From the NCBI RefSeq assembly GCF_009914755.1, contig NC_060936.1: DNA of 64,000 nucleotides. The stretch is one strand, 5' to 3'. Of this stretch, positions 51,501 through 54,971 are shown in pieces. Numbering within the stretch: the stretch's first letter is position 1; each line of letters begins with the position of its first letter. The notes under the pieces are model-generated. The model worked only from the letters and a program-made list of their open reading frames with translations. It had not been told where the DNA came from and did no database searches. Position numbers and translations under genes: made by a program. Source of the stretch: the human T2T-CHM13v2.0 reference genome, Homo sapiens.

Positions 51501-54500
51501 TCAGTTTTTTTTTTTTTTTTTTTTTTGAGACGGAGTCTTGCTCTGTCACCCAGGCTGGAGTGCAGTGGCGCGATCTTAGCTCACTGCAACCTCCACCTCC
51601 TGGGTTCACGCCATTCTCCTGGCTCAGCCTCCCAAGTAGCTGGGACTACAGGCGCCCGCCACCACGCCCGGCTAATTTTTAATATTTTTAGTAGAGACGG
51701 GGTTTCACTGTGTTAGCCAGGATGGTCTCGATCTCCTGACCTCGTGATCCGCCCGCCTCGGCCTCCCAAAGTGCTGGGATTACAGGCTTGAGCCACTGCG
51801 CCCGGCCTTCAGTTTTCATATCTGTTAAAGTGAAGGATCTTAAGGAGATGATTTTATGTTTATTTATTTTATTTTATACATTTTCGTGAGTGCCTACCAT
51901 GGGATGGACACTCTGCTCAATTCTAAGGAATATAAAGATGAGCATGACATGGTGCAATCCTCAAATAATCTGTTTTGGTTTTTTTCTTTTTTTTAAAGTC
52001 CTGGGAGCCTACTGCATGTGTTACAAACTCTTTTCAGATTTAGAGTTAACATAATGAATTTGAGCTGGTTGGAAAAAAAAATCAGTTCAAGAGTCTCCTT
52101 CAAAAGATTATCTAGTTTTTGCTTTTTGTTAGTATGGTATGATTTCTACTGAGAAGTCTTTGTAAACAAGACTGAAACCTTGAGAATCTTACAGAAATGC
52201 AATGCAATTTATTCTGGCTTTTGGGTCTTGTTTTCTTTAAAAACTAAAGTCTATCATATTTATTTCCCATAGATGTTTGAATGAAAAAAAAGTCTTTGAG
52301 ACACATTTCCCTTTGGCAATTCTGAGGGTATTATGAGCTTGAGATTTCAAAATTCAAATCCAACTAGGAACTCATCAGCAAATATAGTGGAACAATTATG
52401 TTTTGCTTAGGTGGAGGAACACCTCTTTAAATAATATGATTTGATTTAAAATGCAGTCAATCAATTGCTATTTCCCAGTTCACTGAATACTAATTTATTT
52501 TAACCAGTTTTATACTGAGAATATTTTCAAAAACACGTTTTAAATTATTAAGATTTTCAGAGAAAAACTCTGATGTTACTCCAAGTTAGCACTGATTGGA
52601 AATCATACAGAGAAAGGAATAAAATCAATAATAATGAGAAAAGATTTTTACTAATGTTAAATAAAATTTAAAAGGAAGAGATATGGTGCCCACATTTGTT
52701 TTATATATACACATACACACACGCACACACAGGTATATGTACACATCCATATACAAAACATATATACAACATATACATACATATTTTTATATATATAAAT
52801 ATATATATTATGGAATATGTGTGTATATATTATAAACTTTGTATAAGCATATATTAATATGCATATATTATATGTAGATATGTGTGTATATATTATATAT
52901 AAATATGTGTATATATAGTATATATTTATATATACTGCACTCCAGCCTAGGCAACAGAGTCAGACTCTGTCTCTTAAATATATATATATTATATATACAT
53001 GTATTTATATATATGCACACATATAAAATATATATTAAATATGTGCACATATATAAAATATGTGTATTATTAAATATGTATTATATAAATACATAATATA
53101 TGCATAATATATATGTGTATATAATCTATAAATATGTGTATATATAATATATATTTTTAATATGTGTATATATAATATATATTTTTTTAAGAGACAGAGT
53201 CTGACTCTGTTGCCTAGGCTGGAGTACAGTAGTGCAACCATAGCTCACTACAGCCTCCAACTCCAGGGCTCAAGCAATCCCTGGAGTCCTGAGATCCTTG
53301 GGAGGAATCCCCTTTCTTGGCCTCCCAAAGTGCTGAGATTAAAGTGTTTAATAAAGTATGGTTAAACATGCACACACACACACATATATAGTTTTGGAAA
53401 CAATCTGCCTCCCACCCTTTGTAACTATTAGGATTAAAGAAATGCATATACATATATATATATATATATATATATATATGCAGAGAAAGAATTCATAGTA
53501 ATAACATTGGTTAATGATGAGACTAACTTCTGAAAGTTCTTTTTAAATTTTCCCTTTTTGTATATACTTGGCTAATATTCTATTGTATATACTTGGCTAA
53601 TATTCTAACTAACTTTCTACACATTTATTATTTTTCTAAATAGAAGAACTTATTTTTTAATTAAATTTCTATAAAAGGTTTAAATTATAAATCTGGTGAT
53701 TTGATTTTTAGAGTTAGATATTTATCGACTTTCCCTAAAACAGAACAAATATTTGTGAGCCTCTTGAGTTACAGTAAGATTCAGCAATATTTTATGAATA
53801 ATTATAGCATATTATCCTTAGTTTCAAATATTAAAAACAACATTTATTTACAGAACTAAAGATGACTCAGAGCCATCTGGAGAAGAAACAGTAGAAAGGA
53901 CAAGGAAGCCAAGTCTTTCTGAAAAGAAAAATAATCCATCAAAGTGGGATGTCTCTTCAGTGTAAGTTATCTACTTGATAAATTCTACCATTTTAGTGGA
54001 ATGGGAAAGGGTGAGGCAGGGCTGACAGTATTAATCCTAATCAAATTACTAAAAGACATGCCAAATTGTTGTATTTAAGATGAATAACAAACTTTGTATG
54101 TCAGGTTATCCTTGAACCTATGTTATCTATTTTGAGAGACAGACTACATTCACATAACTTTTACTGTAATATATGTTATATTCTATTTTATGTTAGTTAT
54201 TGTTCATCTTTTACTATGCCTAATTTATAAATTCAATTTTGTTATAGGCATGTATCCATAGGAAAAAAACAGTATATACTGGGTTTAGTACTATTTTCAG
54301 CTTCAGGCATCCACTGGAGGTCTTGGAGCATATCCCACAAGAATAAAGGGGGACTACTGTACACACACATAAGTACATACACAGACATCCACTCTACCCA
54401 GCAAATAACATTTTTGTTTCCACTGTAGGAATATGTTGCCTTACCTTACTGAAAGAATGAGATACTTGTATGTACTTATTAGAAGATACTGCCTACATCA

Positions 54501-54971: not shown

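What the first reader, a model, noticed from the sequence alone, without database searches (positions are those of the whole stretch)
53391..54584. Near-perfect 54-bp inverted repeat brackets the symmetric penultimate IRAG2 exon
Seen: 53391-53444 (gttttggaaacaatctgcctcccaccctttgtaactattaggattaaagaaatg) is the reverse complement of 54531-54584 at 53/54 positions. I do not recognise it as a known repeat. The arms lie in the two introns flanking exon 53854-53961 (108 nt, phase 2-2, skippable in frame, just before the TM/KASH exon). The left arm sits inside a (CA)/(TA) microsatellite, suggesting a recent templated insertion. Inference: in pre-mRNA a long stem could loop the exon out (36-aa shorter cytoplasmic stalk), promote back-splicing, or be ADAR-edited. 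It could also seed a 1.1-kb inversion.
Basis: partly seen in the sequence, partly recalled or inferred. Interest (0 to 1): 0.7.

Follow-up and report, generated by a model that had tools for sequence, protein, structure and literature searches.

The report
Repair-copied 54-bp inversion around IRAG2 exon
A 54-base piece of an intron of the human gene IRAG2 sits, copied backwards, in a CA/TA microsatellite 1.1 kb away, likely as an ordinary scar of DNA repair in a primate ancestor; the two copies are predicted to pair in RNA around one exon, but no effect on splicing is shown.

Summary
53391-53444 is the reverse complement of 54531-54584 at 53 of 54 bases. The sequence occurs only twice in the genome, and the arms bracket the 108-nt, phase 2-2 penultimate IRAG2 exon.

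The best reading is a young, local repair-mediated (template-switch) duplication. The right arm is old intron: a more distant mammal has a diverged orthologue there, and it holds an annotated DNAI7 acceptor. The left arm is the copy, set in a (CA)n/(TA)n tract with a 3-nt shared end. The 1,086-nt gap and ~2% divergence fit the published class (824 human cases, peak ~1.2 kb). A second inverted capture lies 400 bp upstream, and 1 clear like case turned up in 15 unrelated TA tracts.

A pre-mRNA stem is predicted (-89 kcal/mol), and the exon scores weakly in a crude splice-site matrix, so some loop-out is possible. However, 108 of 113 mammalian proteins, including all 20 named simian entries, keep the exon. 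No primate DNA, PSI or editing data could be consulted.

Verdict: ordinary origin, probably neutral, with a modest chance of a minor splicing effect.

The parts
53391..53444 (+). Left arm: inverted copy (acceptor) of the 54-bp segment
   Evidence: 53/54 to the reverse complement of 54531-54584; flanked on both sides by CA/TA repeat
54531..54584 (-). Right arm: source (donor) segment in the last IRAG2 intron
   Evidence: Ordinary unique flanks; a collinear, diverged orthologue is read through in protein P0020
53369..53390 (.). (CA)n(TA)n microsatellite, left flank of the insertion
   Evidence: (family D11)
53445..53479 (.). (TA)n microsatellite, right flank; the arm's terminal ATG runs into the repeat (3-nt microhomology, inferred)
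   Evidence: TRF AT x17 at 53446-53479; junctions in register
53854..53961 (+). IRAG2 penultimate exon, 108 nt, phase 2-2, inside the predicted loop
   Evidence: hub annotation; frame check; Pfam MRVI1 positions 418-452
54544..54545 (-). AG acceptor of an alternative DNAI7 3'-UTR exon, inside the right arm
   Evidence: hub annotation (exon 53958-54543); AG and the matching GT donor at 55437 read
53958..54543 (-). Alternative DNAI7 terminal exon; its first 13 nt are part of the right arm
   Evidence: hub annotation
52933..52999 (+). Second local inverted copy: Alu-monomer end plus TA tail, inside the AT-rich tract
   Evidence: 64/67 to the reverse complement of 53165-53231; its 45-nt Alu part differs by 1 from that source and by 5-12 from 16 other Alu ends of the window
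53165..53231 (-). Source of the second inverted copy
54200..54361 (.). Old interspersed repeat inside the loop, not part of either arm (family name Tigger/MER-type MITE is recalled, not from a call; left edge approximate)
   Evidence: 1,271 candidates, 40 scored: 39 elsewhere at 78-83% identity

Best explanation
The left arm is a 54-bp reverse copy of intron sequence 1.1 kb downstream, likely made when a broken or stalled DNA end in the CA/TA microsatellite primed on that nearby strand, copied 54 bases and rejoined, and it is probably neutral. Shown: the copy, its uniqueness, its position in the microsatellite and the divergence of the source site in another mammal. Inferred: a break or stall at the TA tract, priming through the shared CAT/ATG, origin in the ape or catarrhine lineage, and the pathway (SDSA, MMBIR or polymerase theta cannot be told apart from sequence). 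The arms are predicted to pair in unspliced IRAG2 RNA once the right arm is transcribed. The exon appears to be mainly included, so the stem is most likely a by-product with no or a small effect.
For: Only two copies in the genome (positive control). One copy splits a simple repeat, the other has ordinary flanks. P0020 (last exon 89% identical to human) reads through the last intron. It aligns collinearly to 54486-54557 and 54568-54693 at about 40% amino-acid identity with a frame change (E 6.5e-5), with 6 of 14 aligned residues identical inside the arm, and it gives no significant match at the left arm. The source has therefore drifted while the two human copies differ at 1 base, so the copy is young. 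Pace 2009 (PMC2671141) reports 824 human duplications within 5 kb, a seeming peak near 1,200 bp, 2-9 nt microhomologies, neutral-rate divergence and one example in opposite orientation. In its 37 chr12 rows of the <5-kb sheet, all 16 'all primates' cases are at least 7% diverged, while the 9 human-chimp-orangutan cases are 0-5.3% diverged. A second inverted capture lies in the same tract. In 15 unrelated TA-tract loci there is one clear twin (L009: 123 bp, 94%, TA on both sides, source 999 bp away, shared terminal CAT) and one partial case (L015). Another 130-bp inverted pair lies in 200 kb of neighbouring DNA. TA repeats are reported break and MMEJ sites (PMC13645644, passages). Inverted templated insertions are reported as germline variants (PMC8421209, passages). 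The exon is included in 108 of 113 proteins.
Against: No primate DNA was available, so the empty allele and the date were not seen. The left junction shows no microhomology. One mismatch dates poorly: the 95% range is 0.1-52 My over two assumed rates. Gene conversion or selection could make an older pair look young. Neutrality is not tested: the stem is predicted at mean pair probability 0.94, and the exon has the lowest acceptor score of 25 and the second-lowest donor score of 23 in a crude local matrix. Short local doublets are recalled (Thomas 2004, not held) to be mostly same-strand, so the inverted orientation is the minority form. The TA tract (13 perfect TA units) is short.
Confidence: 0.75

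Rival explanations
1. Same accidental origin, but the stem now works: it loops out the weak symmetric exon in a fraction of IRAG2 transcripts, giving a protein 36 aa shorter just before the membrane anchor in the species that carry the copy.
For: Duplex -89.4 kcal/mol, 47 of 54 pairs at P>0.9. It is the only inverted match longer than 12 nt between the two introns. The exon has weak sites in the crude matrix and a short (766-nt) downstream intron. PMC13019027 finds loop-out skipping linked to weak acceptors and short downstream introns. PMC4201285 shows 30-40-nt intronic repeats can act on splicing in minigenes.
Against: All 20 named simian entries and the unnamed P0002 (100% identical last exon) include the exon. 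The effect in PMC13019027 is weak (R2 = 0.06), and neither gene name occurs in its text or held supplement. PMC4201285 says not every stable repeat pair works. The arms lie 409 and 569 nt from the exon. No paper was found.
Confidence: 0.15
2. The stem matters on the other strand. In DNAI7 read-through RNA the left arm would pair with, and mask, the acceptor of the alternative 3'-UTR exon 54543-53958. Alternatively the copied acceptor would act as a cryptic 3' splice site in IRAG2.
For: The right arm holds the pyrimidine tract, the AG and 13 exon bases of that acceptor. The minus-strand stem is predicted equally well (mean P 0.95). On the IRAG2 strand the copy gives AG at 53430-53431, which would lead to a stop after about 20 codons.
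Against: The left arm lies 514 nt beyond the annotated DNAI7 end and beyond a minus-strand AATAAA at 53848-53843, so it exists only in uncleaved RNA. The copied AG ranks 42 of 163 AGs in the intron (score 0.1), and no annotated exon starts there (hub table). The DNAI7 isoform is one of 30 models and its support was not checked.
Confidence: 0.04
3. An old, selected RNA structure, with both arms kept identical by selection or gene conversion.
For: 53/54 complementarity around a conserved in-frame exon.
Against: The orthologous site in P0020 differs at 8 of 14 aligned residues with a frame change. The left arm interrupts a microsatellite. No Rfam family reaches its gathering score in 52600-55400.
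Confidence: 0.04
4. The arms are terminal inverted repeats of a transposon, or the ends of a past inversion of the 1.1-kb segment.
For: Inverted orientation; a dispersed repeat lies between the arms.
Against: The arm has 2 genomic copies. The inner repeat ends at 54361, 170 nt before the right arm. No shared target duplication flanks the outer ends. The enclosed exon is in the normal orientation and conserved across mammals.
Confidence: 0.02

Closest known systems
Repair-mediated duplications by capture of proximal DNA (Pace et al. 2009, PMC2671141) and short paired duplications or 'doublets' (Thomas et al. 2004; seen only as cited in Pace, details recalled)
   Same: Single-copy source within 5 kb, gap near the 1.2-kb peak, at least 50 bp, short microhomology at one end, low divergence like ape-age cases.
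   Different: The acceptor is a microsatellite, not a transposon, so their pipeline could not list it (not among the 37 chr12 rows of the <5-kb sheet). Orientation is inverted.
MMBIR-type templated insertions (PMC8421209) and polymerase-theta/MMEJ repair at TA repeats (PMC13645644)
   Same: Inverted copy of nearby sequence with junction microhomology; TA-rich site.
   Different: The template is 1.1 kb away, farther than the tens of bases typical of these events (recalled). Microhomology is at one end only. The TA work is on tumour ecDNA, not germline.
Loop-out exon skipping by inverted Alu pairs (PMC13019027; the TBXT case is recalled)
   Same: Complementary intronic arms on both sides of a short, in-frame exon with a weak acceptor.
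   Different: Arms are 54-bp non-Alu sequence rather than ~300-bp Alus, and skipping is not shown here.
Short intronic repeats that support back-splicing (Liang and Wilusz 2014, PMC4201285)
   Same: Arm length (54 nt) exceeds the 30-40 nt found sufficient.
   Different: Their circles were 360 nt or larger in the passages seen. A single 108-nt exon is probably too short to circularise well (recalled).

Membership tests
Repair-mediated duplication (Pace 2009) | Insert of at least 50 bp found at only one other place in the genome | tested here: met
   54 bp; 2 places only
Repair-mediated duplication (Pace 2009) | Source more than 50 bp and less than 5 kb away | tested here: met
   1,086 nt
Repair-mediated duplication (Pace 2009) | No poly(A/T) tail of retrotransposition | tested here: met
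   junctions
Repair-mediated duplication (Pace 2009) | Microhomology, filler or deletion at the breakpoints | tested here: inconclusive
   The terminal ATG/CAT is shared with the repeat flank at one end and none is seen at the other; without the empty allele the true breakpoints are not fixed
Repair-mediated duplication (Pace 2009) | Empty site in an outgroup species | not testable with these tools
   No primate DNA held; P0020 covers only the source site
Transposon terminal inverted repeats | Many dispersed copies of the arm | tested here: not met
   2 copies, against 1,271 candidates for a true repeat nearby
Transposon terminal inverted repeats | Target-site duplication outside the arms | tested here: not met
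   Outer flanks unrelated
Loop-out splicing element | Arms can form a stable long-range helix | tested here: met
   Prediction only: -89.4 kcal/mol, mean pair probability 0.94
Loop-out splicing element | Enclosed exon is measurably skipped | tested here: inconclusive
   0 of 20 named simian entries skip it; cluster representatives only
Loop-out splicing element | Skipping depends on pairing (deletion, compensatory rescue) | not testable with these tools
   needs a minigene or genome edit
Conserved structured RNA | Arm sequence or covariation conserved across mammals; Rfam match | tested here: not met
   Source site diverged in the one distant orthologue seen; no match at gathering score among 16 weak Rfam hits

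The most novel reading that the evidence does not exclude
A single repair scar, with no transposon involved, created an ape- or catarrhine-specific 54-bp RNA stem that loops out the weak penultimate exon of IRAG2 and shortens the stalk of this IP3-receptor and nuclear-envelope protein. TA microsatellites, as traps for inverted local copies, would then be a general, overlooked source of new splicing structures, parallel to inverted Alu pairs.
Probability: 0.12. Interest if true: 0.6.

Novelty: new member of a known kind. Interest (0 to 1): 0.22.

Why it matters
As a neutral scar it is one of roughly a thousand or more such local duplications and matters little. It is, though, a clean natural test of whether a short, near-perfect, non-Alu stem around a weak in-frame exon changes splicing, because species with and without the copy should exist. 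The side result that TA tracts appear to capture nearby DNA (two captures here, 1 clear and 1 partial in 15 other tracts) could be tested genome-wide. The main published survey looked only inside transposons.

Tried and rejected
Transposon ends: rejected on copy number. Known RNA family: 16 weak Rfam hits, all far below their gathering scores. Cryptic IRAG2 acceptor from the copied AG: rank 42 of 163 in a matrix built from only 25 acceptors, in which the real acceptor of exon 53854 also scores low (0.7), so the test is weak. Listing in Pace Table S1: no LRMP or CASC1 and no matching coordinate prefix; the 37 chr12 rows of the <5-kb sheet were read, the last 12 of 102 chr12 occurrences (second sheet) were not. 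Literature: searches found nothing on this repeat or on skipping of this exon. One search's one hit names LRMP only in a gene list. Subscription papers and bioRxiv supplements were not searchable. Thomas 2004 was not held. A second pattern search for foreign inserts in TA tracts gave places but no DNA to examine, so the TA-capture sample stays at 15 loci, all on one chromosome and taken from the first 30 matches (overlapping loci merged). No primate or population DNA, PSI, circRNA, editing or SV data was reachable, so date, polymorphism, editing and inversion remain open. Earlier scan findings were not available.

Full report
Observation. The repeat finder reports arms 53391-53444 and 54531-54584, 54 nt, 98% complementary, 1,086 nt apart. 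The direct comparison gives one difference, at 53424, which would be an A x G mismatch in IRAG2-sense RNA. In 100 order-2 Markov simulations of the 1.4-kb region the best comparable match was 18 nt. In the whole T2T genome the sequence has two places only, by a DNA search and by a 26-mer with up to 3 mismatches. The tool warns that it skips common words, but it returned 1,271 candidates for a real dispersed repeat lying between the arms at 54200-54361. The arms are therefore not a transposon family. The enclosed exon 53854-53961 is 108 nt, phase 2-2, and dropping it leaves the frame intact.

Which arm is the copy. Put in register, the two arms have unrelated flanks. The left arm is bordered on both sides by alternating CA/TA repeat, the right arm by ordinary intron. 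The arm ends in ATG, and both halves of the microsatellite begin ATGCA. Read on the other strand, a repeat end in CAT could have primed on the source. The other junction shows no shared bases. Evidence on age came from a protein search with the last exon (157 hits, best 120 listed). One unnamed entry, P0020, is 89% identical to human in the last exon, against 96-98% for the macaque entries. It is an open frame that reads through the preceding intron. It aligns collinearly to 54486-54557 and 54568-54693, at about 40% identity with a frame change (E 6.5e-5 in a 1.4-kb target), and has no significant match at the left arm. Within the arm 6 of 14 aligned residues are identical. The right-arm site is thus old and has drifted, while the two human copies differ by one base. 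I infer that the left arm is a young copy. The right arm also contains the pyrimidine tract, AG (54545-54544) and first 13 bases of an annotated alternative DNAI7 3'-UTR exon. Its GT donor lies 21 nt after the DNAI7 stop codon.

Date. One change in 54 gives 4-9 My at two assumed rates, with a 95% range of 0.1-52 My. At 10% true divergence, one or fewer changes has probability 0.024. In Pace et al. Table S1 the 16 chr12 cases shared by all primates are 7-17% diverged. The 9 human-chimp-orangutan cases are 0-5.3% diverged, and the 9 that include macaque are 1.8-12.5%. An ape or catarrhine origin is likely but was not observed.

It is not alone. Four hundred bases upstream, 52933-52999 is a reverse copy of the Alu-monomer end and TA tail at 53165-53231 (64/67). 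Its 45-nt Alu part differs by 1 base from that source and by 5-12 from 16 other Alu ends in the window (the Alu label is recalled). For background I kept pairs of at least 25 nt, at least 85% identity and 100-5,000 nt apart, with no other match in the held DNA. In 200 kb next to the window there were 3 pairs: a 130-bp inverted pair 697 nt apart, and 92-bp and 32-bp direct pairs. In the 64-kb window there was 1, the finding; the Alu-derived copy is removed by this filter. In 15 distinct TA-tract loci of about 3 kb (46 kb, from the first 30 matches) there were 3. L009 is a twin: 123 bp, 94%, TA repeat on both sides, source 999 nt away, shared terminal CAT, direct orientation. L015 abuts a TA tract on one side. 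L005 is inverted and not at a TA tract. The sample is small and not random. None of the other pairs was as long and as perfect as the finding, which reflects youth rather than a different kind.

Known class. Pace et al. 2009 (PMC2671141; read: parts 1-4 of 8, passages, chr12 rows of Table S1) describe 824 human duplications of at least 50 bp captured from within 5 kb. They report a seeming distance peak near 1,200 bp (which they caution may be a method effect), 2-9 nt microhomologies, neutral-rate divergence, copied splice sites and one exon copied in opposite orientation. Their density is 0.62 per Mb of transposon DNA. Extrapolated, that is about 1,900 per genome. With about 200,000 internal exons (recalled), a 1.1-kb span holds an exon some 7% of the time, so on the order of a hundred would bracket an exon by chance (my estimate). 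This locus is not in their table, as expected for an acceptor outside a transposon. Inverted templated insertions occur as germline variants (PMC8421209, passages). TA repeats are break sites repaired by microhomology-mediated joining in tumour ecDNA (PMC13645644, passages). Thomas et al. 2004 was not held; what I say of it beyond Pace's citation is recalled.

Does it do anything? The arms are predicted to pair: duplex -89.4 kcal/mol; over 53340-54640 the mean pair probability is 0.94, with 47 of 54 pairs above 0.9. No other inverted match over 12 nt joins the two introns. These are equilibrium folds and ignore co-transcriptional splicing and proteins. In favour of an effect, a leave-one-out matrix from the window's own sites gives this exon the lowest acceptor score of 25 and the second-lowest donor score of 23. 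No MaxEnt model was available. PMC13019027 (read: part 3 of 8, section 21, passages, supplement search) links loop-out skipping to weak acceptors and short downstream introns, though weakly (R2 0.06). PMC4201285 (passages) shows 30-40-nt repeats can drive back-splicing in minigenes but that not every stable pair does. Against an effect: of 120 proteins examined, 7 lacked the upstream exon and were set aside. Of the other 113, 108 include the exon (median 30 of 35 residues identical), 4 skip it and 1 has other sequence. The 4 are gene models from grey whale, sheep, tree shrew and hamster. All 20 named simian entries and P0002 include it. Because entries are 90% clusters, a minor skip isoform could be hidden. 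The hub table lists alternative exons, not skipped ones, so it does not settle this. Five paper searches found nothing on this repeat or this skip. A review of IRAG2 (PMC10298018, passages) describes the C-terminal anchor and PPPX motif and, in the passages shown, no such isoform.

Other-strand effects. The stem is as stable in DNAI7-sense RNA (mean P 0.95) and would cover the alternative acceptor. But the left arm lies 514 nt past that exon's annotated end and past an AATAAA, so it is present only in uncleaved RNA. The copied AG on the IRAG2 strand scores poorly (rank 42 of 163) and starts no annotated exon.

Verdict. A real, young, inverted local duplication of a published kind, in a microsatellite, probably neutral (0.75). 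A measurable loop-out effect is the main rival (0.15). Novelty: new member of a known kind. Interest 0.22.

Noticed in passing
window 52933-52999 and 53165-53231: A second young inverted copy (64/67) of an Alu-monomer end plus TA tail, inside the 480-bp AT-rich tract; predicted hairpin duplex -105.5 kcal/mol in the same intron.
   Followed up: partly
L009 1354-1476 and 2476-2598 (G000:C1:33051080-33051202 and 33052202-33052324): 123-bp direct copy (94%) sitting between two (TA)n runs, source 999 nt away, shared terminal CAT: same anatomy as the finding.
   Followed up: partly
L035 (G000:C12:24748226-24748354 and 24749052-24749181): 130-bp inverted pair, 90% identical, 697 nt apart, one copy directly behind an A-run.
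   Followed up: no
window 54544-55437, minus strand: An alternative DNAI7 3'-UTR intron (GT 21 nt after the stop codon, AG in the right arm) spans the whole last exon of the convergent IRAG2 gene; the main 3' ends of the two genes overlap at 55200-55246 (hub table).
   Followed up: partly
window 53558-53607 and 53131-53186: Perfect 25-bp and 28-bp tandem duplications near the finding, further signs of recent local copying in this intron.
   Followed up: no
window 54829-55246: The hub table lists an alternative last-exon start at 54829, inside the stretch coding the hydrophobic anchor, which would give a form without most of the anchor.
   Followed up: no
L015 1122-1164 and 1601-1643; L005 26-99 and 2135-2208: A 43-bp direct copy next to a TA tract and a 74-bp inverted pair 2,035 nt apart, both 92-93% identical.
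   Followed up: no
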